From positions 3,022 through 67,021 of the forward strand of contig JAHBTG010000006.1 in NCBI GenBank assembly GCA_019638695.1: a stretch of 64,000 nt of DNA, read 5' to 3'. Made by a program: the position numbers and the translations under genes. Below are positions 1,072 to 18,365 of the stretch, one piece after another. Below the pieces are notes generated by a model. The model made no database searches and had not been told where the DNA came from. It saw nothing but the letters and a program-made list of their open reading frames with translations. Position 1 is the first letter of the stretch, and each line of letters begins with the position of its first letter. Origin of the DNA: Bacteroidota bacterium. Its GTDB lineage: Bacteria; Bacteroidota; Bacteroidia; J057; JAJTIE01.

Positions 1072-1781
1072 TCCTCTTCCTTCAGCAAGGCGTGGGCTAC
1101 CGCCACGCAGATATCCATGGCCTGGACCACATAATCCGGCTTCTGCAGGCGCCCGTGGAAATAAGCATAGCTGTTGCCGTTGTCCAGTTGCAGGGTAATG
1201 GTGTCACCTTCTGTCCGTACATCGGTGAAGAACCAGTGTTTCAGGTAATGATGCAGCTCATGCGACGCTATGAGGTTGAGTGCTGCGGCGGGATGCTCTG
1301 TATAGATGGCTACATGGGGGTTCAGCGCCTTGGCATCTACACTGGCCTTAGGTAAACCGGGTTGCAGGCGCTGCCGCATTTCGGGGAGCACTGTGCCGCT
1401 GGGCAGCCAGGACATGTCATCCCAGATCGCCAGCGGAGGAAAGGTTCTGCCCGGGGCCTTGAGCACCACCTTAAGCTTGGGATTGAAGGTTTTCCAGTCA
1501 TACTGGGTTTTGTCTACCCGGGTGCCTTCGCTGTGCTCTGTGCGGGTGGTGCCCACCCACATGCGGCCGGTAACATCTATGGCAAAGTCCTTGTATTTGC
1601 CCGAAACCCCGTCATCGTTAGGCTTGGGGAAGGTGTGGGTCTTCATTCCCAGTTTTTCCAGGAAGTCTTCCAGCTGGGTATGGTCCACCTTCTTTTTGCG
1701 GAATATGGCCAGTACCATGATCAGAATGCCAGTAATGACGAGGCCGCCCAGTACATAGAGCGTTATGTTTCCTTCCATCAT
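1068..1781 (-). CDS. Hypothetical single-pass membrane protein
   Basis: N-terminal hydrophobic helix followed by RKKK; 237 aa with normal composition. Confidence 0.65.
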   Translation of the reverse strand: MMEGNITLYVLGGLVITGILIMVLAIFRKKKVDHTQLEDFLEKLGMKTHTFPKPNDDGVSGKYKDFAIDVTGRMWVGTTRTEHSEGTRVDKTQYDWKTFNPKLKVVLKAPGRTFPPLAIWDDMSWLPSGTVLPEMRQRLQPGLPKASVDAKALNPHVAIYTEHPAAALNLIASHELHHYLKHWFFTDVRTEGDTITLQLDNGNSYAYFHGRLQKPDYVVQAMDICVAVAHALLKEED

Positions 1782-1849
1782 AAGTATAGGTATTAGTCGT
1801 TTAGTGGTGCAAAGATAGATGCTGGGTTGTATTGTTCGTGTGCCTTGTT

Positions 1850-2431
1850 CTAATGTGGAGCGGGGAGCGGCACCAGGGATTGGGCATAATAATGCGTATA
1901 GAACGGCATATGCCGTGCTTGTACCAGGTGGCGCAAGGTATGGACTTCCATGGCTGCAAACAACATTTCCAGGCTGGAAATGCGGCTAAGGTCTTTGTCG
2001 GCATCATCCGGGAGCACATCTATGGCATATACCTGTGCGGCATGCAGGTCCTGGGCCAGCAGTTGCTGCCCGGTGTGGGGGGCTGTGTCCGTATCTACAA
2101 ATTGCAGTCTGTAGCGGCTGTAAAGCAGGTCCTCCTCTCGTCGTTGCAGTTGCCAGTCGCTGTGGTGATTGCAGACGGGGCACTTGAGTTGCCCGGCCAG
2201 CAGCAGGCAGGTATCCGATTGTACATCGTAGTCGCCGGCAGACAGCAGCGCAGCCAGTTGATGTGCAAGCTGCTCGTTTAGTGCCAGGGTTTTATCTCCC
2301 AGGTATAACAAGGATAGTCCCTGTGCCTGGTGTACGAAGAGCGATACCGGCTGAGGGCAGGCCAGCACATTGGTATCACAGGCCGGACAGGCCAGCATGT
2401 CTGGCCCGGGACTGGCATAGTTAGGATTCAT
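1850..2431 (-). CDS. Hypothetical protein with two CxxC motifs (possible zinc ribbon)
   Basis: CPAC and CPVC motifs; start set at ATG 2431, just downstream of a TATCTTTG promoter element. Confidence 0.6.
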   Translation of the reverse strand: MNPNYASPGPDMLACPACDTNVLACPQPVSLFVHQAQGLSLLYLGDKTLALNEQLAHQLAALLSAGDYDVQSDTCLLLAGQLKCPVCNHHSDWQLQRREEDLLYSRYRLQFVDTDTAPHTGQQLLAQDLHAAQVYAIDVLPDDADKDLSRISSLEMLFAAMEVHTLRHLVQARHMPFYTHYYAQSLVPLPAPH

Positions 2432-2436
2432 GCGGG

Positions 2437-2444
2437 CAAAGATA
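2437..2444 (-). promoter_or_regulatory. Bacteroidota -7 promoter element (TATCTTTG)
   Basis: Exact TAnnTTTG on the minus strand, 5 nt upstream of ATG 2431. Confidence 0.5.
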
Positions 2445-2479
2445 TTGCACCTTGGCTCCGGTTTTTGCACATTTGTACA

Positions 2480-2941
2480 ATGCACAACTGGTTTCTACAC
2501 TTGTTCGAATGGACTGCCTGGGCCAATGCCTGCATGGGAGAAGCCATTTCACCTGTTTATTCGGCAGATACCTATGTCCAGCGGCAGTTTAGCCACATTA
2601 TCCATGCCCAGGAGCGATGGTTGCTGCGGTTGCGCCAGGAAGAACTTACCCGGCAAGACCTGTTTGAACCGCTTCCCCTGGAGGAAGCCCTGCAGCGTGA
2701 CCAGTCTTTTGCCCAGGCAATTACAGCGCTGCTCACCCTCCACCAGGAGGATACCGGCTGGCTCCGGACGCCCGTGCCTCATACCACCAACCAGGGCCAG
2801 CAATACATATTGCCCGTTCAGGGCGTGCTGACCCAGCTCCTGCACCACGGCACCCATCACAGGGCGCAGCTGGCGGCAAGATTAACTTCGCTGGGGTATG
2901 CCTCTCCTCCTATTGATTATATCTTCTATGCACGCCAATAG
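2480..2941 (+). CDS. DinB family protein
   Basis: W..WAN, HIIHAQERW and HHGTHHRAQL motifs; start at MHNWFLHL. Confidence 0.85.
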   Translation: MHNWFLHLFEWTAWANACMGEAISPVYSADTYVQRQFSHIIHAQERWLLRLRQEELTRQDLFEPLPLEEALQRDQSFAQAITALLTLHQEDTGWLRTPVPHTTNQGQQYILPVQGVLTQLLHHGTHHRAQLAARLTSLGYASPPIDYIFYARQ

Positions 2942-4081: not shown

Positions 4082-5008
4082 ATGAAAGAAAAGGCAGAGG
4101 TAACCAAGATACATGAATACCTGGGACATACCCAGAGTGTATATGCCCTGGCGCCCGCTCATCTGCCCGGGCATTTTCTCAGCGCAGGGGGAGACGGTAT
4201 CGTAGCACAGTGGGCGCTTGACCGTCCGGATGTGGCTGTTGGCCTGCTCCGGGCGCCGCTGCCACTTTACAGCCTGGAGTGCCTGCCTGCCGGGCACCTG
4301 GTACTGGCCGGTCAGAATGACGGGGGATTGCATGCCCTGGACCTGGCCACGGGCAGTTTGCGCAAGAGCATACGGGTGCACCAGCGCCCCATATTCGGCC
4401 TTCAGGTGCTGCCGGGAGATGCTTATTTCCTGGCATGCAGTGAAGACGGGCAACTCTCTGTGTGGGATTGTGCTACCATAAGCTGCCAGACCACCGCACA
4501 GATCTCACAGGCCAGCCTGCGGACAGTCGTTATGCACCCCAGGGGTAAGGAATTTGCCATTGCCGGGAGTGATGGTTATGTCCGCGTGTATGCTCTGGAT
4601 GGTTTTCGGCAGCTATATAGCTGGCAGGCGCATGCCAACACCGTGTTTACCCTGTGCTATAGTCCCGATGGCGAACTGCTGTTATCCGGCAGCCGGGATG
4701 CCCATCTCAAAAGCTGGGATGCCCGGCATGGCTATAGCCTGGTGCAGGATGTGCCTGCACACCTCTTTGCCGTTAATGACATGACGTTTTCTCCCGATGG
4801 AGTTCACCTGGCCACAGCCAGTATGGACAAGACCATCAAGCTATGGGACCCCTATACGCTAACGCTCATCAAAGTGATCGACCGGCCGCGCAATGGCTGC
4901 CATCTCACGGGTGTCAACCGTTTGCTGTGGTTGCCGGGTGGGGAACTGCTTTCCTGTTCGGATGACCGCACCATTATGCAGTGGCAGGTGCGTTTTTACA
5001 AAGCCTGA
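4082..5008 (+). CDS. WD40-repeat beta-propeller protein
   Basis: Repeated GH/AH...SPDG..L.S.S.D..IK.WD motifs. Confidence 0.9.
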   Translation: MKEKAEVTKIHEYLGHTQSVYALAPAHLPGHFLSAGGDGIVAQWALDRPDVAVGLLRAPLPLYSLECLPAGHLVLAGQNDGGLHALDLATGSLRKSIRVHQRPIFGLQVLPGDAYFLACSEDGQLSVWDCATISCQTTAQISQASLRTVVMHPRGKEFAIAGSDGYVRVYALDGFRQLYSWQAHANTVFTLCYSPDGELLLSGSRDAHLKSWDARHGYSLVQDVPAHLFAVNDMTFSPDGVHLATASMDKTIKLWDPYTLTLIKVIDRPRNGCHLTGVNRLLWLPGGELLSCSDDRTIMQWQVRFYKA

Positions 5009-11987: not shown

Positions 11988-12017
11988 ATAAAAGGCCACC
12001 TTTAGGTGGCCTTTTAT
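11988..12017. terminator. Bidirectional intrinsic terminator
   Basis: ATAAAAGGCCACC-TTTA-GGTGGCCTTTTAT perfect inverted repeat between convergent genes. Confidence 0.9.
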
Positions 12018-12047: not shown

Positions 12048-14684
12048 CTAGAGCTTCATGATTCGTTTATTCACCTGCTTCACAGTGCCATTGGACATGG
12101 GTATGGCCAGGCGCACGTAGTACATGCCTTTTGCCAGGTGTGTGATATCCACCGAATGTTTGCTGAAGCCGGGCTCTGCGGAGACTTTCTGCTGGGCGAT
12201 TAGTTGCCCGGTAGTACTGTAGATCTGGTAAGTGACGGACAGGTCTTTTTCTGCCTTGCTCCGCAGTCCTATATGGAAGTTACCCGTAGTGGGATTGGGG
12301 AATACCCGCGCTTCCACCATTTCTTCAGGAGAGGCTGTGGGATCCAGGTCTCCCAGGTATACGGCTTCCACATTGCTGTAGGTCATGGCGCCATCGTTGT
12401 CTACCATTCTCAGGCGGTAGTAGCTCAGCCCGCGATAGGGTTCCCAGTCCATCAGGTCATAATCGCGAGATGCCTGGCTGTTGCCTGCGGCGGGTACAGT
12501 ACCCACGTGCTCATAAGCGAACCCGTCCCAGCTACGCTCTACGTCAAAGTATGAGGCATTGATTTCCTTGCGGGTGGTCCATTGGGTAAAGACCCACTCA
12601 TTACCCACAGTAGAGGCACGGAAGAGCATCAGTTCTATAGGAAACAGCACATCTGTGTGGCACTCCTGTTGCAGGGCATTGTGGGCAAAGCCATCTTCAA
12701 ATCCTCCGCGGTTGAACTTGAGGTCGTCAATAGGCTGGCATGTCAGGAGCGTTAGCTGGTGCATGGTATATCCGTCACCAGGGCCACCCAGCGCCAGCGC
12801 ATAGTCCTGGGGAGGTTCACAGGTTGTGTAGGTGCGTGTATGGAATCCAAAACCGTCTCCCGATCCGCCGCGGGCGAGAATATCATCAGGGGAATCGCAA
12901 ACCGTGTAGACGCGTGCATGGAATCCAAAACCATCTCCTGATCCGCCGCGGGCGAGTGTTTCGTCCATAGGGGAATCACAGACCGTGTAGACGCGTGTGT
13001 GCATTCCGTATCCGTCTCCCGATCCGCCGGTATACAGTGCGTTATCGGGCTCAATCACACAGGTAGTCAGCTGGAGCGGGCGATAAGCGAAGCCATCTCC
13101 AGTGCCGCCGGCAAAGAGTGAATAGTCATCCAGCGGACAGTTGGTTTGCACCAGGAGATGCGTGCCAAAGCCGTCGTCCGAGCTGCCCCGGTAGATGGTA
13201 AGGCCCGTAAGATCTGTGCCGCAGCGGTCACCCAGGTCGGTGGTTTCATACCCATATCCGTCTCCTGAGCCGCCAAAGTATACGTAGACGGGGTTATCCG
13301 TATTGGGTTCGCATACTTGTATCATCAATACGTCTGAAGCGCTGCCGTCACTGTTGCCGCCGGTATAGGCCACATTGATATTATCTATGATACACTGTGT
13401 GGGTAACAAGGTATCCAGTGCAAATCCCTGACCTGTACCGCCTGTGAAGAGGGAGTTGTCAATGGGGTCTGTGCATACCGTGTGTATCAGGGTGTCCATC
13501 CTAAATCCTTGGCCCGGGCCACCGGTAAAGAGTGCGGTATCCTCCGGCAGGCAGTTCTGGATTATGAGCGCATGCAGGCTAAAGCCACTGTTGTTGCCAC
13601 CGGCGAAGAGGGTGGTGTCATCGGGCAATGTGCAAGGATTTGGGCGCAGTTCATGCCATGCGGTGCCATCTTCTTGCCCGCCGGCAAAGAGGGTGGTATC
13701 ATCGGGCAATGTGCAAGGATTGGCCGCAAGCAGGTCCTGTACGTAGCCCGAGCCTTCTCCACCCAGGTATATAATGATATCCGGATTTTCCGGGGTAGGA
13801 CAGGCATTGTATATGCGCAGGTGACTGGCATAGCCGTCTCCGCGCTCTCCTGTAAACATAGGAGAATCGAAAAGCGGGCAATGGGTTGTATGCAGTTCTA
13901 TGTGGACGTTGCCACTGCCGGCACCCCCCATGTAAGGGTGAAGTACGGGGTTCAGCAGGGGGTCGCAGTTCAATAGTTCCACACTGGTGCCATGTCCGGT
14001 TCCACCTCTGAAGGCCACATCTATCTGTGGGGTACAGTTTGTTTTGATAAGATTATGACTCGTGCTGCCACTGCCGGTTCCTCCTGTGGTTACCACATCG
14101 GTAATGGCATCACAGTAGGTGGTCATGTATATGCCCAGCATTGTTCCGTGCCCTGCGCCGCCAAAGGCTGGTGCCGCATCTACAAAGTCATTACAGAAAG
14201 TTACCATGTATTCACCGAATGCAGTACCGTCTTCTGCACCGCCTTTGGCAGGTGCTTCGTCTCCCAGGGGAGCGCATTCGGCTATTGTCAATATAGCCAG
14301 GCTATTGCCATTGCCCTCCCCGCCCCTGGCTGGGGCTTCATCCTGCAGGGGAGCGCAGTAGCTGTTGGTGAGTTCGCCCTGTGCAGTGCCTTGTCCGTCG
14401 CCGCCGGTAGCCAGAGGAGCCGTGGGATCGGTATTGCAAATAGGCGTTTGGATGCTTTCGCTCATTTGATCACCGGAACCGTTGCCTCCCCAGTACAGGG
14501 TATTGTCATCAAAGGCGCAGGTGTTGGTTGCCACCTCCGCCAGGGCCGCGCCGTGGCCGTCTCCTCCCCTGTAGGGCTCATCCTGCGCCTGCAAGGCACT
14601 TGCCATGCCCAGCCATAGCATGCCAAACAGCAGGCCGGTAACAGCGGGCAATAACAAACGTTGAAGGATACTGGGGCGATACAT
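12048..14684 (-). CDS. T9SS type A sorting domain protein with 24 Gly-rich single-Cys repeats
   Basis: Signal peptide (..LQA|QDE); repeat array; FPIELMLF Ig-like domain; CTD VFPNPT...YSTTGQLI...LAKGMYYVRL...KRIMKL. Confidence 0.9.
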   Translation of the reverse strand: MYRPSILQRLLLPAVTGLLFGMLWLGMASALQAQDEPYRGGDGHGAALAEVATNTCAFDDNTLYWGGNGSGDQMSESIQTPICNTDPTAPLATGGDGQGTAQGELTNSYCAPLQDEAPARGGEGNGNSLAILTIAECAPLGDEAPAKGGAEDGTAFGEYMVTFCNDFVDAAPAFGGAGHGTMLGIYMTTYCDAITDVVTTGGTGSGSTSHNLIKTNCTPQIDVAFRGGTGHGTSVELLNCDPLLNPVLHPYMGGAGSGNVHIELHTTHCPLFDSPMFTGERGDGYASHLRIYNACPTPENPDIIIYLGGEGSGYVQDLLAANPCTLPDDTTLFAGGQEDGTAWHELRPNPCTLPDDTTLFAGGNNSGFSLHALIIQNCLPEDTALFTGGPGQGFRMDTLIHTVCTDPIDNSLFTGGTGQGFALDTLLPTQCIIDNINVAYTGGNSDGSASDVLMIQVCEPNTDNPVYVYFGGSGDGYGYETTDLGDRCGTDLTGLTIYRGSSDDGFGTHLLVQTNCPLDDYSLFAGGTGDGFAYRPLQLTTCVIEPDNALYTGGSGDGYGMHTRVYTVCDSPMDETLARGGSGDGFGFHARVYTVCDSPDDILARGGSGDGFGFHTRTYTTCEPPQDYALALGGPGDGYTMHQLTLLTCQPIDDLKFNRGGFEDGFAHNALQQECHTDVLFPIELMLFRASTVGNEWVFTQWTTRKEINASYFDVERSWDGFAYEHVGTVPAAGNSQASRDYDLMDWEPYRGLSYYRLRMVDNDGAMTYSNVEAVYLGDLDPTASPEEMVEARVFPNPTTGNFHIGLRSKAEKDLSVTYQIYSTTGQLIAQQKVSAEPGFSKHSVDITHLAKGMYYVRLAIPMSNGTVKQVNKRIMKL
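12648..14573 (-). repeat. 24 tandem ~26-29 aa repeats, consensus (F/Y/A)xGGxGxG-x~10-C-x~7
   Basis: Counted in the translation; near-identical DNA pairs at 13600-13640/13681-13721 and 12840-12878/12918-12956. Confidence 0.9.
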
Positions 14685-14796
14685 GGGTAAAAACGGGTGC
14701 CGGGATGATGAGTTGTAGGTGGCTTGAAGAGAGGGGCGTATCTTTTATAGTATTGAAAAGAACCTGCTGGCCAAGCATAACAGGCCCGTTTTAACT

Positions 14797-14858
14797 GCTC
14801 TTTAGCGGCAGCTGAACCTCCAAGGGGATGCCCACGGAGATTCAGCTTGCCAAAGAGC
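14797..14858 (-). promoter_or_regulatory. Long intergenic mRNA stem-loop without a U-tract (stabiliser or processing element)
   Basis: Minus strand GCTCTTT-GGCA-a-GCTGAATCTCC...GGAGGTTCAGC-TGCC-gct-AAAGAGC; one G-U pair forms only in mRNA orientation. Confidence 0.65.
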
Positions 14859-14908
14859 TTATAGCGCCTTAAGAGAGGGTCTCTGTTGAGATGAAAAACA
14901 ACCTTTCA

Positions 14909-16366
14909 CTAGGGAGTCTGCGTGCGTACTCCCCGGAGGCCATAAGACGCATTGCGCGTATTGCGGGCTATGTTAGCCGATGCATTTGTGCGGTCTGAGA
15001 TGCGGGCCTGGGCTATAGGAAGGTTATGTGCACCTCCTCTTTGGCCCCAGGTGAAGTTGGCTACGGGCCAGTCATTATTATCTACATGGCTTCCTGCAGC
15101 ATCCAGTACGCCATTGCCATGAGATCCTTCAAAGATTACGGTAGGAACGTTTGCACTGGCGGGAGCCGCTACTGCCAGTTCTGAGGTGTTTCCGGACATT
15201 TCCATTACCCCATAGTAGGTGGCACCTGCCGTAGTGCGATTCGTAGACGCCGTGGCAGGGGCTCCATTTCTCCAGAGGGGAGCTGATGACGAAGTAGTAC
15301 CTGCCGGGCCCACAACGGTTGCAATGCTTTCAGTAGCGGTGTTTGGGTTGGTGAGGCCGCCGGGGTTCGTAAATGTGGTATTCCCCCAGGCGTATTCCAG
15401 TGCTACGCGGGCCAGGGTGCCCCTGCAGGCTTTTTCATATTCCAGCTCGCTCATGGGGCGCAGGCCGCTCCAGTCCATAAAGGCCAGGTGGTCATCCCAG
15501 CTGATAGCTGTAATGGGCACCCATTGGCCATCGTTTGGTTCATTAAAGCTGTTGTTGTTATTCAGATCGCAGGCAAATACCGCGGGCGTAGTGTTGTTTA
15601 CCCCTTGTTGCATGATTTCGATACGTACTCTCACGGCGGCTGCGGGAGTTTGGAGGATCACTGTACCCACCGGGTCGTTGGGGTTAACGGGGGCTACGCG
15701 GGTTACCTGCTGGTCATAGGTCAGAGTATTGAGGTAGTTGGCATACATTTCTGCGCTTACCTCGTACTTCATGATGTAGAATCCGCTCCAGCCTGCCGGG
15801 TAATTGGTAGGTATCATAGTGGAGCCTCCATAGAGTACACCTGCATTGATCTGTCCATCACTTGTAATAGTCTGTTCAGTAAATGTGCTGGGGGCACCGG
15901 TGCTGCCGATCTGGAAATCTCCCTGGGGTACATACACCATTTCGATGCCGAATACCCGGAAGTTCCAGTTGCCATTGCCGGCAGTATTGGGGGTTTGCAG
16001 GTTAATAGTAGTTGCCGGTATATCGCCGGAGCCATTGGCTACGCGGCGAACAAATACACCTATGTTATCAGATACGGTTTGCACACCCAGCAAGGCAGGG
16101 GCACTGGTAGAGTGGCCGGCGGCAGAGAGGTTCAGGTGGTTCCATTCCAGGGCGGGGCAGTTTTGATACTTGATGAAGATCCACACGGCGTCCCAGTTGG
16201 CCGGTCCTGCGCTGATGCGCCAGGAGTTTTGCCAGCTCAGGGTGAAGCTCAGGACATCTGTGGCATCATTGAACGAAGTGCCTGTGATCACTACGTTATT
16301 GGCGCGCACCACGCCGGGCATCACAAATGCCAGCGCCAGCGCCAGGGTTGCATACAGCTTTCTCAT
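14909..16366 (-). CDS. Secreted FGE-sulfatase/SUMF1-fold (C-type lectin-like) protein with N-terminal beta domain
   Basis: Signal peptide (..VRA|NN); SWQNSWR..NWDAVWIFIKY; EMVYVPQG.F, FYIMKYEVS, LRPMSELEYEKACRG, YGVMEMSGN and RGG...GLRGVR motifs. Confidence 0.85.
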   Translation of the reverse strand: MRKLYATLALALAFVMPGVVRANNVVITGTSFNDATDVLSFTLSWQNSWRISAGPANWDAVWIFIKYQNCPALEWNHLNLSAAGHSTSAPALLGVQTVSDNIGVFVRRVANGSGDIPATTINLQTPNTAGNGNWNFRVFGIEMVYVPQGDFQIGSTGAPSTFTEQTITSDGQINAGVLYGGSTMIPTNYPAGWSGFYIMKYEVSAEMYANYLNTLTYDQQVTRVAPVNPNDPVGTVILQTPAAAVRVRIEIMQQGVNNTTPAVFACDLNNNNSFNEPNDGQWVPITAISWDDHLAFMDWSGLRPMSELEYEKACRGTLARVALEYAWGNTTFTNPGGLTNPNTATESIATVVGPAGTTSSSAPLWRNGAPATASTNRTTAGATYYGVMEMSGNTSELAVAAPASANVPTVIFEGSHGNGVLDAAGSHVDNNDWPVANFTWGQRGGAHNLPIAQARISDRTNASANIARNTRNASYGLRGVRTQTP

Positions 16367-16402: not shown

Positions 16403-16410
16403 CAAATCTA
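16403..16410 (-). promoter_or_regulatory. -7 promoter element (TAGATTTG) for the FGE-like/repeat-protein operon
   Basis: TAnnTTTG about 36 nt upstream of ATG 16366 in an AT-rich intergenic region; no clear -33 element. Confidence 0.55.
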
Positions 16411-16619
16411 ATCTGCTGAAAACAGAAAGCCTACTACATTATCTAATAAAAATATAATAGAAAGATTTTCAATAAATATGGATTGCCTGGCAATATATTA
16501 TTAATGGAATGGTTGTTGATTTGTTAATTAAGCATAAGTGCCGGGTTTTTTGACACGCTTAAAAAACAATTGCCTGCCAGGCATCAATATCTTTCCCTCA
16601 AAACATTTCTTAATGCCAC

Positions 16620-18365
16620 CTACAGTCCCATAATGCGCTGGGGAAGATTCCAGCGCAGGCTCAGCATGGCCCAGGCTGTGCGCCGTACCTGGTCTCCTTC
16701 CGTTTGTTCTGTGCGGAAACTGATATCGCCTTCCACAAAGGCGTTGAGCCGCATGATTTGGTAACTCATGCGTCCGTGCAGGCTCATGACCCGGTATGCC
16801 TGGCCCTGGAGTACTACATTGCCAAAATCTTGTAGGTGTGTGACATTGCTGCGCAGGATATTGCCGCCATAGTTGAGACCGCTCAGGTCCAGTCCCTTTT
16901 GGGCTGCCTGCACCATGCCTGTCATAAAAATGCGGGGCAGGGGCTGGTAGCGCAGGATAGCCGTGAACTCCCGGAAATTGGCGCCCAGGGGGTGGGCAAG
17001 GGGCTGATTGTAATGGGCGTAGTTGCCGCTGATATTATAGTGGCTGTAGGTATAGGGCCGGGCGGTATTGGCTTCCACCTGCAGATCCAGTGTCTCTATA
17101 CCCAGCACGTCAATGTATTTGAACCCTGCCTGCAAGCCGTATTTATTGCCCCACCAGCCGCTGCCGTTCTTGCGCTGGCCAAAGTTGTAGTCATCCAGGT
17201 TGACCTGGCCATACAACTGGAGGCGTTTCCACAGATTCACCTTGGTGGTGAGGCCCATGGCATAGTTGTCCGGACTGCCCAGGGACTGTTCTACGGCACG
17301 ATAGAAGATAAGCGGGTTCAGGTATTGCAGCTCGAAACCGCGGTAGCCGTTGGGGAGCAGGGGTGCATAGATCACATTCTCAAAAAAGCCTATGCTCACC
17401 TCTTTTACCGGGCGGAAGGCAATGTGATGAAATACCCCGTACTTACGGGGCTGGGCGCCTATGACATCGGGTTTGTTGGGGATCAGGTCCGTCATCTGCG
17501 TAAAGTGGCTCTGATATTCCAGTTTCCATACCCGCACATTCATGTTGAGCAGGTAATAATCGGTGGCATAGTTGCTGAGCAGCATGCTTTGATAACCATC
17601 GCCCCAGAAGGCCCGGTCTCTGCCCAGCTTGAACCGCAACTGGGGAATAGGGCTATAGGTAAGATAGCCCCGTGCGCTCAGGTAATCATGTCCGTTGGTC
17701 CGGAAGGTCTTGAAGAAGGCCTCTCCCGGGATGGCTGCAGTGGCTGCTATCTGGCTGCGGACGTATTGTGGAAAGATGGCCTGGTTGTCTGTGAACTCTG
17801 TATAGAACCCTACTTTGCCAAATACACTACCTCGCAAACTGGCTCCCCTGGTGTTGCGGAATAGCAGCTGCGTAGGATCCTGGGGGCGTAGTTCGGAACG
17901 CTCCTGCCCGGCGCCCAGGTGCAGCACAGGGTTGGCATATACTTTGAATGCCTCCCTGCGGCCTTTGATCGCCCTGCGAAAGCCATGCTCGTCTTTATAG
18001 ACACTGTCTTTTTTGGCCGGGCGGTAGTAACCATAAAAGTCTCTGCCATTGGTCCAGAATGTGCCCCATATTCCATGCCCGGCCTGCGCCTGGCAATAAG
18101 CATCGTCCATGAGCACACGGCTGCGGTGCAGCCATGTGCGCGCCCGGCGGCCCATACCCGTAGTGTCCGTGCGGGCTAGCCATTCGGCTACCTGCTCCCG
18201 GCCATAGGGCTTCAGGGTGGTGGGCAGTGCCATGCCCACACGCCCCTGGATATCCAGCCGGTCTACCAGGTGGTATACCTCGTCGTTGAGCAGGACGTCC
18301 CCATCCTGGCCATATGCCGTCAGAGACCCTAATAGTCCCAGCACAATACTGATTACTTTTTTCAT
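16620..18365 (-). CDS. Outer membrane protein, Wzi/RemB-like family
   Basis: Signal peptide; RFKLGRD..FWGDGYQSMLLS, YLNPLIFYR and RPYTYSH...NYAHYNQPLAHPLGANFRE motifs. Confidence 0.7.
   Translation of the reverse strand: MKKVISIVLGLLGSLTAYGQDGDVLLNDEVYHLVDRLDIQGRVGMALPTTLKPYGREQVAEWLARTDTTGMGRRARTWLHRSRVLMDDAYCQAQAGHGIWGTFWTNGRDFYGYYRPAKKDSVYKDEHGFRRAIKGRREAFKVYANPVLHLGAGQERSELRPQDPTQLLFRNTRGASLRGSVFGKVGFYTEFTDNQAIFPQYVRSQIAATAAIPGEAFFKTFRTNGHDYLSARGYLTYSPIPQLRFKLGRDRAFWGDGYQSMLLSNYATDYYLLNMNVRVWKLEYQSHFTQMTDLIPNKPDVIGAQPRKYGVFHHIAFRPVKEVSIGFFENVIYAPLLPNGYRGFELQYLNPLIFYRAVEQSLGSPDNYAMGLTTKVNLWKRLQLYGQVNLDDYNFGQRKNGSGWWGNKYGLQAGFKYIDVLGIETLDLQVEANTARPYTYSHYNISGNYAHYNQPLAHPLGANFREFTAILRYQPLPRIFMTGMVQAAQKGLDLSGLNYGGNILRSNVTHLQDFGNVVLQGQAYRVMSLHGRMSYQIMRLNAFVEGDISFRTEQTEGDQVRRTAWAMLSLRWNLPQRIMGL

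What the first reader, a model, noticed from the sequence alone, without database searches (positions are those of the whole stretch)
12048..16366. Candidate new surface-assembly system: T9SS scaffold with 24 single-Cys docking repeats plus a CTD-less FGE/C-lectin-fold subunit
Seen: a two-gene unit with its own promoter and terminator. Gene 1 is Sec-exported, has no T9SS CTD and has 3 Cys (an odd number). Gene 2 has 24 short repeats with one Cys each, then an Ig domain and a type A CTD. A long stem-loop separates the genes. Known: T9SS export needs a CTD, and intergenic stem-loops can set subunit ratios. Inference: each ~27-aa repeat is too small to be a domain and may bind one copy of gene 1, by strand addition and possibly a disulfide. 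That would give a scaffoldin-like multivalent lectin or adhesin complex whose subunit is exported or displayed by hitchhiking.
Basis: partly seen in the sequence, partly recalled or inferred. Interest (0 to 1): 0.87.

Follow-up and report, generated by a model that had tools for sequence, protein, structure and literature searches.

The report
Docking-repeat scaffold with FGE-fold partner protein
A secreted scaffold protein with 24 short repeats lies next to a gene for a non-catalytic FGE-fold protein; conserved gene order, one natural fusion, matched cysteines and a complex model suggest each repeat holds one copy of it, a surface-assembly scheme my paper searches did not find described.

Summary
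Gene 1 (14909-16366, minus strand) has a signal peptide, a beta-sandwich and an FGE-fold domain. It has 3 Cys and no CTD. Gene 2 (12048-14684, minus) has a signal peptide, 24 repeats of about 27 aa with one Cys each, an Ig/FnIII-like domain and a type A T9SS CTD.

- The pair is conserved across Bacteroidota. In 50 of 76 loci the gene after an FGE-like gene starts with the same GG motif, against 11 of 508 control ORFs. Motif number ranges from 1 to about 45.
- One genome fuses FGE-like protein, one motif and a CTD-like tail into one ORF.
- Cys70 of gene 1 is present in 31 of 31 homologues whose partner has one-Cys repeats and in 0 of 9 with Cys-less repeats. This rests on only about 3 independent changes.
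- A complex model scored 0.66 (best control 0.00). Exactly one repeat is bound, by beta-strand addition, and Cys70 lies in the interface.

The family lacks the FGE catalytic cysteines. Export by hitchhiking, 24:1 loading and the subunit's ligand remain inferred. No description was found in five paper searches. All evidence is computational.

The parts
16403..16410 (-). Promoter-like TAnnTTTG motif (TAGATTTG), 37 nt upstream of the gene 1 ATG, in an AT-rich 250-nt spacer
   Evidence: The motif is not enriched in the window (30 found, 27.7 expected), so this is a plausible site only. That it is the Bacteroidota -7 consensus is recalled.
14909..16366 (-). Gene 1 (P0001, 485 aa): secreted, CTD-less FGE-fold subunit
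   Evidence: AF2 model has mean pLDDT 84.5 and pTM 0.88.
16301..16366 (-). Gene 1 signal peptide (residues 1-22, ...VVRA|NN). It has no lipobox Cys.
   Evidence: A22-N23 is conserved across the family. The cleavage site is inferred.
15827..16300 (-). Gene 1 N-terminal beta-sandwich (residues 23-180): the predicted docking surface, with strands 25-33 and 134-146
   Evidence: pLDDT mostly 83-97; interface residues
16157..16159 (-). Codon of Cys70 (KYQNC), the Cys that co-varies with the partner's repeat Cys
14912..15814 (-). Gene 1 FGE/C-type-lectin-fold domain (residues 185-485). It lacks the FGE catalytic Cys pair.
   Evidence: Z 17-18 to FGE, EgtB, CalU17 and PorK alike
14797..14858 (-). Long intergenic stem-loop with no U-tract
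   Evidence: z -3.74; unique in the genome
12048..14684 (-). Gene 2 (P0002, 878 aa): T9SS type A cargo and scaffold
14586..14684 (-). Gene 2 signal peptide (residues 1-33, ...ALQA|Q). The mature N-terminus is Gln34, which is nearly invariant in the family.
   Evidence: helix 6-27. The cleavage site is inferred.
12660..14585 (-). 24 docking repeats (residues 34-675). Consensus: D-x-x-L-[YFA]-x-G-G-x-G-D-G-[FY]-x-x-[HD]-x-L-x-x-T-x-C.
   Evidence: No Pfam or NCBIfam family. 165 representative relatives. AF2 pLDDT is mostly below 50.
13392..13472 (-). Repeat 15 (residues 405-431), the unit that the complex model docks on gene 1
12315..12659 (-). Ig/FnIII-like beta-sandwich (residues 676-790)
   Evidence: This domain is shared by family members (consensus; Ig HMM hits).
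12051..12314 (-). Type A T9SS C-terminal sorting domain (residues 791-878)
   Evidence: The genome has GldK and PorU above their curated cut-offs.
11988..12017 (-). Terminator-like hairpin with perfect 14-nt arms, between convergent genes

Best explanation
The two genes encode a two-part surface-display module.

Gene 2 is a T9SS type A cargo whose N-terminal 640 residues are not a folded domain. They form a string of 24 docking units of about 27 aa. Each unit has a GG-x-G-D-G turn, then an 8-residue beta-strand, then one Cys.

Gene 1 is a Sec-exported, non-catalytic protein made of an N-terminal beta-sandwich and an FGE/C-type-lectin-fold domain.

In the periplasm, one gene 1 molecule binds one unit. 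The unit's strand adds to the edge formed by the subunit's first strand (residues 25-33) and strand 134-146. The GG turn packs against the FGE-fold domain. Cys70 of the subunit forms a disulfide with the unit's Cys.

The loaded scaffold is then exported and anchored through its CTD. The result is a multivalent display of up to 24 FGE-fold heads.

Relatives with a single unit plus a CTD-like tail would act as 1:1 export adaptors.

What the data show: the anatomy, the conserved pairing, the fusion, the Cys correlation and a complex model that passes its controls. What is inferred: the disulfide, full occupancy, co-export through the T9SS, and that the FGE-fold head is the ligand-binding part.
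For: (a) Conserved pairing.
- Downstream of 23 FGE-like loci in relatives and in the window's own genome, 12 have a small ORF with a signal peptide, one Q-x-P-Y-x-GG-x-GDG-Y-type motif and a CTD-like tail; where a start was assigned it lies between 3 nt before and 16 nt after the FGE-like stop.
- A further 3 have 6-7 Cys-less repeats plus Ig plus CTD. One (a second pair in this genome, contig C102) has variant Cys-type repeats plus CTD. One is a fusion.
- Among the best 80 of at least 595 loci found across the phylum, 50 of 76 downstream ORFs carry the motif within their first 80 aa, against 11 of 508 other ORFs.
- Starting from the repeat side, 3 of 3 loci have an FGE-like gene directly upstream.

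(b) Natural fusion. In L038, an FGE-like protein, one YIFHGGPGSGYH motif and a CTD-like tail form a single 621-aa ORF. Pfam finds FGE-sulfatase at E 1.3e-12.

(c) Cysteines.
- Repeat arrays have either exactly one Cys per unit or none, never a mix.
- Cys70 is present in 31 of 31 partners of Cys-type arrays, 0 of 9 partners of Cys-less arrays and 5 of 21 partners of single-motif proteins.
- In a wider cross-table, 59 of 67 pairs are concordant.
- The Cys count in the array is odd in 44 and even in 42 of 86 Cys-type proteins. Some have 7 Cys and no other Cys. Pairing inside the array therefore cannot be the general rule.

(d) Complex model.
- Score 0.66 against 0.00 for the best of 3 controls. 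In the tool's calibration this mark was reached by 58 of 80 solved complexes and 2 of 110 mismatched pairs; the counts hold only roughly because my own alignments were used.
- The runs agree in at least 75% of their contacts. Partner pLDDT is at least 39.
- The interface is one whole unit (408-431). On gene 1 it covers 24-32, 41-61, 68, 70-73, 112-114 and 133-144, plus patches of the FGE domain.

(e) AF2 gives no confident fold for the array itself: 527 of 878 residues are below pLDDT 50, and there is at most one strand per unit. The Ig-like domain and CTD are confident.

(f) Gene 1 is not an FGE enzyme. P0001 has no Cys after residue 314, and the family has no conserved Cys there.

(g) The genome has T9SS machinery: GldK at 447.5 bits and PorU at 1094.2 bits, both above their cut-offs.

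(h) Precedent. The FGE-fold proteins GldK and PorK form functional intermolecular disulfides with SprF and PorG (PMC12635249, passages read; PMC12365241, abstract only).
Against: - All evidence is computational.
- The complex model used my own alignments. The partner's pLDDT is 39-44. The output does not say whether Cys70 and Cys431 touch each other.
- On the family tree Cys70 changes only 3 times. In independent contrasts it moves the same way in 1-2 pairs, the opposite way in 0, and does not differ in the rest. The sign test is not significant.
- 8 of 67 pairs are discordant. Some of these are artefacts of start choice.
- The pairing is not exclusive. Of the 76 downstream ORFs, 17 lack the strict motif (about 6 of them show visible variants) and 9 are tandem FGE-like paralogues.
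- Other family members precede large Cys-rich or other cargo proteins without the motif (L039, L044, L046, L047; L129-L136).
- Only one fusion was seen. None of the 120 best of 2201 homologues carries PF18962. The CTD-like tails of the fusion and of the small partners score just under the curated cut-offs (21.7 and 21.8 bits against 23).
- Interface residues are not enriched in invariant columns: 14 of 73 invariant or near-invariant positions lie in the 68-residue interface, out of 462 residues (hand count).
- P0001's sandwich is confidently folded without the partner, so this is edge addition, not completion of a missing strand.
- My searches found no precedent for T9SS hitchhiking.
Confidence: 0.58

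Rival explanations
1. Gene 1 is a dedicated periplasmic chaperone or holdase for GG-repeat cargo. It binds each unstructured unit only transiently, perhaps through a mixed disulfide, keeps the array soluble or export-competent, and is released before or at the translocon. It is never displayed.
For: This uses the same pairing and complex-model evidence. The array has no confident fold of its own. Gene 1 has only a Sec signal and no CTD. My searches found no precedent for T9SS hitchhiking.
Against: The natural fusion places an FGE-like domain in front of a motif and a CTD-like tail in one chain, so at least that copy is itself likely to be a T9SS passenger. A Cys-Cys match kept through about 3 changes fits a stable link better than a transient one. 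Single-motif partners have almost nothing to chaperone: about 25 aa plus a CTD-like tail. The family is multi-copy, with variable inserts, which is more typical of binding heads than of a housekeeping chaperone.
Confidence: 0.2
2. Gene 1 is an enzyme of the FGE/EgtB/PvdO superfamily that modifies the repeats after translation, for example at the Cys or at the Gly-rich turn. The complex model would then show an enzyme-substrate encounter.
For: The fold is equidistant from several enzymes: CalU17 at Z 18.2, EgtB at 17.8 and FGE at 17.3. Many units have Pro one to three residues after the Cys, which loosely recalls the FGE substrate motif; that motif is recalled. Databases name the family 'SUMF1/EgtB/PvdO family nonheme iron enzyme'.
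Against: P0001 has no Cys after residue 314, and the family has no conserved Cys there, so the FGE Cu-binding pair is absent (the pair's position is recalled). Cys-less arrays and single motifs keep the same partner gene. The model's tightest contacts are on the N-terminal sandwich, not in the FGE-domain groove. PorK, a structural protein, scores the same (Z 17.6). An enzyme need not match its own Cys70 to the substrate's Cys.
Confidence: 0.1
3. The two proteins do not bind each other. They are simply co-regulated surface or periplasmic proteins, and the array folds by itself into a stalk or solenoid, with its Cys oxidised inside or between scaffold chains.
For: Neighbouring genes often do not bind. 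AF2's low confidence is not evidence of disorder. The window's array has an even Cys count of 24. Interface residues are not enriched in invariant positions (hand count).
Against: Odd Cys counts occur in 44 of 86 arrays, including proteins with 7 Cys and no others. Single-unit forms cannot make a solenoid. There is one natural fusion. The Cys70 correlation holds. The complex score is 0.66 against 0.00 for the controls.
Confidence: 0.1

Closest known systems
GldK/PorK (FGE-fold T9SS and gliding-track lipoproteins) disulfide-bonded to SprF and PorG
   Same: An FGE-fold, non-catalytic Bacteroidota envelope protein uses a single Cys to make a functional intermolecular disulfide with a partner (PMC12635249, passages read; PMC12365241, abstract). 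The structural match of P0001 to PorK is Z 17.0-17.6.
   Different: P0001 is not GldK: it scores 11 bits against the 350-bit cut-off, and the true GldK lies elsewhere in the genome. It has no lipoprotein Cys. The matched Cys lies in an extra N-terminal sandwich, not in the FGE domain. The partner is a secreted cargo with 1 to about 45 tandem sites, not an outer-membrane barrel protein.
Cellulosome scaffoldin (cohesin-dockerin)
   Same: One scaffold carries many tandem docking sites, each holding one subunit, and the scaffold supplies the surface anchor. This is what the system works like.
   Different: There is no homology and no cohesin or dockerin domain. Here the site on the scaffold is a 27-aa peptide unit rather than a roughly 150-aa domain, all units would bind the product of one adjacent gene, and a covalent lock is proposed. 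That cellulosomes are Gram-positive and Sec- or sortase-based is recalled.
Donor-strand complementation in chaperone-usher pili and Bacteroidota type V (FimA/Mfa) pili
   Same: A short strand from one chain joins a beta-sandwich of another. The type V pilus precedent is PMC4789730, seen in the search listing and abstract only.
   Different: P0001's sandwich is confidently complete on its own. The donor is a repeat in a scaffold, not the next pilin. There is no usher and no proteolytic priming.
Tat hitchhiker and peroxisomal piggyback export
   Same: A signal-less subunit is carried by a partner that bears the targeting signal (PMC9251779, passages read).
   Different: The machinery is different: the T9SS, across the outer membrane. 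That review lists the T9SS as transporting folded proteins but gives no piggyback case for it. Co-export here is inferred, not shown.
Formylglycine-generating enzyme (SUMF1)
   Same: The fold matches: Pfam PF03781; Foldseek E 2.5e-8; Z 16.7-17.3.
   Different: The catalytic Cys pair is absent. There is an extra N-terminal sandwich. The genomic partner is not a sulfatase.

Membership tests
Formylglycine-generating enzyme (catalytic FGE/SUMF1) | FGE-sulfatase fold | tested here: met
   PF03781 at E 1.1e-14. PDB profile hits to FGE at E 5e-10. Z 16.7-17.3, rmsd 3.1-4.1, 217-240 residues aligned.
Formylglycine-generating enzyme (catalytic FGE/SUMF1) | Two catalytic, Cu(I)-binding Cys in the C-terminal part of the domain (position recalled: Cys336 and Cys341 of human FGE) | tested here: not met
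   P0001 has Cys only at 70, 266 and 314. No conserved Cys column lies after position 314 in 25 or in 82 family members, apart from scattered ones.
PorK/GldK T9SS ring lipoprotein | TIGR03525 equivalog score of at least 350 bits | tested here: not met
   11 bits, E 0.19. The genome's real GldK, at G000:C76, scores 447.5 bits.
PorK/GldK T9SS ring lipoprotein | Lipoprotein signal peptide with a lipobox Cys | tested here: not met
   Residues 1-69 contain no Cys.
T9SS type A cargo (gene 2) | C-terminal type A sorting domain above the curated cut-offs | tested here: met
   TIGR04183 at 32.1 bits (cut-off 23). PF18962 at 43.3 bits (cut-off 27).
T9SS type A cargo (gene 2) | T9SS machinery present in the same genome | tested here: met
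   GldK at 447.5 bits and PorU sortase at 1094.2 bits, both above their cut-offs.
T9SS type A cargo (gene 2) | Secretion dependent on the T9SS, with the CTD cleaved by PorU | not testable with these tools
   This needs secretome or mutant data.
Cohesin-dockerin scaffoldin | Cohesin domains on the scaffold and a dockerin on the subunit | tested here: not met
   No such Pfam domains at E up to 1 in either protein.
Donor-strand complementation systems (pilus-type) | An acceptor Ig-like fold that lacks a strand, which the partner supplies | tested here: inconclusive
   The complex model shows the strand at 422-427 pairing with strands 26-32 and 135-140. But the sandwich is modelled at pLDDT 83-97 without the partner.
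RTX / beta-roll GGxGxD repeats | Nonapeptide period with a Ca-binding GGxGxD turn in every 9 residues | tested here: not met
   The period is 26-27 aa with one GG turn per unit. No RTX-type Pfam hit.

The most novel reading that the evidence does not exclude
Bacteroidota have a phylum-wide mechanism, not found described in my paper searches, by which CTD-less FGE-fold proteins are exported and displayed through the T9SS in trans. A short GG-turn, strand and Cys unit on a CTD-bearing adaptor (1 unit) or scaffold (up to about 45 units) captures one subunit each, by beta-strand addition locked with a disulfide. The loaded string then passes the translocon. This would be the first T9SS hitchhiking pathway and a peptide-repeat analogue of the cellulosome scaffold.
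Probability: 0.35. Interest if true: 0.9.

Novelty: categorically new. Interest (0 to 1): 0.82.

Why it matters
T9SS export is thought to need a CTD on every passenger. A trans-acting adaptor or scaffold would change how T9SS secretomes are predicted, because proteins annotated as formylglycine-generating enzymes could in fact be surface proteins. At least 2201 sequence clusters of this family exist, and genomes hold up to a dozen matching stretches.

It would give a function to an unannotated repeat family (165 representative clusters) that has no Pfam or NCBIfam model.

It would extend the recent finding that FGE-fold proteins use intermolecular disulfides in the Bacteroidota envelope.

A 27-aa unit that captures a 50-kDa protein covalently, in tunable copy number, would also be a compact tool for multivalent surface display.

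The hypothesis can be tested directly with two recombinant proteins and non-reducing gels.

Tried and rejected
Dead ends and negative results:
- Repeat array as a known repeat family: no Pfam or NCBIfam hit.
- RTX-like reading: rejected on period.
- Word-indexed homologue search with the array: only 4 hits. The HMMER scan of all representatives was needed to find the family.
- The genome search with the 641-aa array: matches in 3 of 78 genomes of the order. With a 155-aa array from P0012: 2 of 401 genomes of the phylum, the window's own genome included in both counts. The first call missed the known short arrays of L041-L043, so these low counts are not evidence of rarity.
- PDB sequence search for PorK or GldK with P0001 or its profile: not among the listed hits. 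PorK appeared only by fold.
- More fusions: none among longer FGE-like ORFs of family f10, and none with PF18962 among the best 120 homologues.
- Invariant residues enriched in the interface: no (14 of 73 against 68 of 462 residues; hand count).
- Stem-loop as a ratio-setter: in 4-5-repeat loci, mostly Flavobacterium and therefore related, the 60-85-nt spacers often fold well (z -2 to -7). Single-motif loci mostly overlap or abut. But L076 (about 20 repeats, 31-nt spacer), L069 and L080 have no such hairpin. This is suggestive only.
- AF2 on the whole scaffold gave no confident fold for the array. I treat that as no verdict on autonomous folding.
- Fold search of the P0002 model matched only the C-terminal sandwiches.
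- Expression: no RNA holder was listed.
- Protein Atlas: only generic FGE-family cluster names.
- Literature: five searches found no paper on this gene pair, on the repeat, or on T9SS hitchhiking or piggyback export. Passages were read in PMC9251779, PMC12635249, PMC6247017 and PMC9936825. Supplements were not opened. Secretome tables there could list FGE-like proteins among T9SS-dependent proteins and would bear on the export claim.

Rows dropped before counts:
- 4 of 80 loci had no downstream ORF.
- 72 of the 76 loci gave an FGE-like ORF by my rule, and 10 earlier pairs were added.
- 15 of 82 rows (9 followed by a paralogue, 6 without a motif) were left out of the cross-table.
- only proteins that start with M and have a chain of at least 3 motifs starting within the first 90 residues were counted. 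My chain detection undercounts irregular arrays; it finds 9 units in P0002.

Full report
**What is in the window**

Two genes lie on the minus strand between a Wzi-like outer-membrane gene (16620-18365; PF14052 at 29.9 bits, just under its 30.1-bit cut-off) and a convergent enoyl-CoA-hydratase-like gene.

Gene 1 (14909-16366, 485 aa from the ATG) has a hydrophobic N-terminus ending ...VVRA|NN. It then has a beta-sandwich of about 160 residues and an FGE-sulfatase domain (PF03781, E 1.1e-14). It has three Cys, at 70, 266 and 314, and no CTD.

Gene 2 (12048-14684, 878 aa) has a signal peptide ending ...ALQA|Q and then 24 units. The units are followed by a beta-sandwich and a type A T9SS sorting domain (TIGR04183 at 32.1 bits, cut-off 23; PF18962 at 43.3 bits, cut-off 27).

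The units are highly regular. All 24 carry G at motif positions 0 and 5. D is found at -6 in 16 units and L at +11 in 15. In 20 of 24 the Cys is exactly 16 residues after the first G.

The 224-nt spacer between the genes holds a long hairpin at 14797-14858 (z -3.74), which is unique in the genome. A perfect hairpin at 11988-12017 follows gene 2. A TAnnTTTG match lies 37 nt before the gene 1 ATG.

**Gene 1 is an FGE-fold protein but not an FGE enzyme**

Its model is confident (mean pLDDT 84.5, pTM 0.88). By fold, the C-terminal domain is equally close to enzymes and to structural proteins:
- CalU17 at Z 18.2, EgtB at 17.8 and FGE at 17.3
- PorK at Z 17.6 and Treponema TvpA at 17.3

Sequence profiles reach only FGE and EgtB. 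P0001 has no Cys after residue 314, and the family has no conserved Cys there. The Cu-binding pair that defines FGE is therefore missing; its position is recalled.

Gene 1 is not GldK. It scores 11 bits against a 350-bit cut-off, and the real GldK and the PorU sortase are elsewhere in this genome.

The family is large and multi-copy:
- at least 2201 sequence clusters at E up to 1e-20, named only generically
- a match in 32 of 41 related genomes
- seven ORFs in this genome, four of them in tandem

**The repeat is a family of its own**

No Pfam or NCBIfam model matches it. A full HMMER scan found 165 representative proteins at E up to 1e-3. Most are 300-460 aa and have a signal peptide, 5-8 units starting directly after an A-Q cleavage site, the same Ig-like domain and a CTD (consensus). 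A few have 17-45 units.

The arrays fall into two classes with no overlap. Either every interval between motifs has exactly one Cys, or none does.

In 86 Cys-type proteins the array's Cys count is odd in 44 and even in 42. Several have 7 Cys and no other Cys. A ladder of disulfides within the array therefore cannot be the general design.

AF2 with a 108-row alignment gives the array pLDDT mostly below 50, with at most one 8-residue strand per unit. The Ig-like domain and the CTD reach 85-97 and match FnIII/Ig pairs. I treat the low confidence as no verdict, not as proof of disorder.

**The two families travel together**

Around 23 FGE-like genes in relatives and in this genome, the next gene is:
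- in 12 loci, a small protein with a signal peptide, one Q-x-P-Y-x-GG-x-GDG-Y-type motif, about 25 aa and a CTD-like tail; where a start was assigned it lies between 3 nt before and 16 nt after the stop of the FGE-like gene
- in 3 loci, a protein with 6-7 Cys-less units plus Ig plus CTD
- in 1 locus (a second pair in this genome, contig C102), a 694-aa protein with variant Cys-type units plus CTD
- in 1 locus (L038), not separate at all: FGE-like protein, one motif and a CTD-like tail form one 621-aa ORF
- in 4 loci, a very large Cys-rich protein without the motif
- in 2 loci, nothing relevant; one of these ends at a contig edge

Of 76 downstream ORFs:
- 50 have the strict motif in the first 80 aa
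- 9 are tandem FGE-like paralogues
- 17 are other, and about 6 of those show visible variants of the motif
- the control rate is 11 of 508 other ORFs

Starting from the repeat side, the three extra loci that the repeat queries found all have an FGE-like gene directly upstream.

The pairing is not exclusive. More distant FGE-like genes precede other kinds of large secreted proteins.

**Cysteine match**

I aligned 82 FGE-like proteins with known partners. Cys at the position of P0001 Cys70 is present in:
- 31 of 31 whose partner has one-Cys units
- 0 of 9 whose partner has Cys-less units
- 5 of 21 whose partner has a single motif

Most of those five single-motif partners do have a Cys about 17-19 residues after the motif, or were tandem paralogues that my rule misclassified.

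With the partner state redefined as 'motif followed by a Cys', 59 of 67 pairs agree. Cys266 and Cys314 show no such split. Cys314 sits in the family's EKACRG motif.

A quick maximum-likelihood tree shows that Cys70 changes only 3 times. The partner's state follows it in each clade. The window's protein sits next to Cys-less relatives (L050, L051, L109) yet has both Cys70 and a Cys-type array. Independent contrasts are too few for significance: the two traits move the same way in 1-2 pairs and the opposite way in 0. This is a suggestive correlation, not a proven one.

**Complex model**

I gave the tool mature P0001 (residues 24-485, 25-row alignment) with three units of P0002 (352-431, 106 rows). 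The result:
- scores 0.66, 0.74 and 0.66 in three runs, against 0.00 for the best of three controls
- this mark was reached by 58 of 80 solved complexes and 2 of 110 mismatched pairs in the tool's calibration; these counts hold only roughly because my own alignments were used
- the runs agree in at least 75% of their contacts
- partner pLDDT is at least 39, and two of the three units stay unbound

The interface is exactly one unit, residues 408-431. Its strand at 422-427 makes the lowest-error contacts with P0001 residues 26-32 and 135-140. The interface also lists P0001 residues 41-61, 68, 70-73 and 112-114, and FGE-domain patches at 200-210, 281-282, 344-347 and 366-386.

Cys70 and the unit's Cys431 are both in the interface list. 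Whether they touch each other is not printed.

No similar solved complex is known to me. The main interface is not the FGE substrate groove, so a pass from memory seems unlikely.

**Reading**

Each unit is a docking site for one gene 1 molecule, joined by strand addition and, in Cys-type systems, a disulfide to Cys70. With an odd Cys count in gene 1, Cys70 would be the free one; this step is inferred.

The single-unit partners look like minimal adaptors: a docking peptide plus a CTD. Together with the fusion they suggest that the FGE-fold protein is a T9SS passenger carried in trans.

FGE-fold proteins making functional intermolecular disulfides in the Bacteroidota envelope have a recent precedent in GldK-SprF, GldK-PorG and PorK-PorG (PMC12635249, passages; PMC12365241, abstract).

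What the FGE/C-type-lectin-fold head binds is unknown. Multi-copy paralogues with variable inserts fit a ligand-binding role.

**Weak points and rivals**

Nothing here is experimental. Three rivals remain:
- a chaperone that binds the units only in the periplasm
- an enzyme acting on the units
- mere co-regulation with a self-folding stalk

I give these 0.2, 0.1 and 0.1.

The stem-loop as a device to make more subunit than scaffold has mixed support from other loci. No RNA data were available.

**Novelty**

Five full-text searches and the family libraries gave no description of the pair, the repeat or T9SS hitchhiking. Sources name gene 1's relatives as formylglycine-generating enzymes or nonheme iron enzymes, which the missing catalytic residues contradict.

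Noticed in passing
L041 2899-5793(-), L042 4421-7453(+), L139 6144-9002(+): In three loci of family f4, the FGE-like gene and the Cys-less GG-repeat gene are followed by a protein of about 950-1010 aa. In L041 and L042 it has TPR repeats and a CHAT (caspase-like) domain at E 2e-60 and a hydrophobic C-terminal tail. The L139 protein is similar in size and position but was not scanned. This may be a conserved three-gene cassette.
   Followed up: partly
L025 4937-11158 (also L026, L030, L036, L037): Orthologues of gene 1 with single-motif partners sit in a conserved five-gene block: a beta-propeller-like CTD protein, the FGE-like gene, the small motif-plus-CTD protein, a TonB-dependent receptor (Plug plus barrel) and a DUF5074 lipoprotein. 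This may link the module to an uptake system.
   Followed up: partly
G000:C102 7221-11138 (L045 2222-6139): The window's genome has a second pair. A 606-aa FGE-like protein with an extra C-terminal insert is followed 13 nt later by a 694-aa CTD protein whose units read F-x-GG-x-GGG...PC.
   Followed up: partly
G000:C120 269-12221 (L046); G000:C84 1-3990 (L047); L039; L044: Tandem arrays of 2-4 FGE-like paralogues precede very large Cys-rich proteins (756 to over 2300 aa, 21-65 Cys). In three of the four loci these begin A-Q-P-x-N-D-N-C-x-N-A and lack the GG motif; in L046 the start was not resolved. How, or whether, these pair is open.
   Followed up: no
window 16620-18365 (-): The upstream neighbour is a 581-aa protein with a borderline match to capsule-assembly protein Wzi (29.9 bits, cut-off 30.1). 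It has its own small terminator-like hairpin at 16571-16583 and is probably a separate unit.
   Followed up: no
L048-L075 intergenic spacers (60-85 nt): In 4-5-repeat loci, mostly Flavobacterium, the spacer between the FGE-like gene and the scaffold gene often folds better than shuffles (z -2 to -7). Single-motif loci mostly overlap or abut. L076, L069 and L080, with 7-20 repeats, have no such hairpin.
   Followed up: partly
L034 about 1615-2508(-), L037 about 4196-4825(+): Between the FGE-like gene and the small partner ORF these two loci carry repetitive DNA that reads as HTHSHT-like or TCDSAGVG-like repeats in frame. It could be an insertion or a repeat expansion in the spacer.
   Followed up: no
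Alignment of 82 FGE-like proteins, insertion after P0001 residue 356: A second Cys column is present in 24 of 31 proteins with Cys-type partners and 0 of 9 with Cys-less partners. It lies in an insertion that the window's protein lacks.
   Followed up: no
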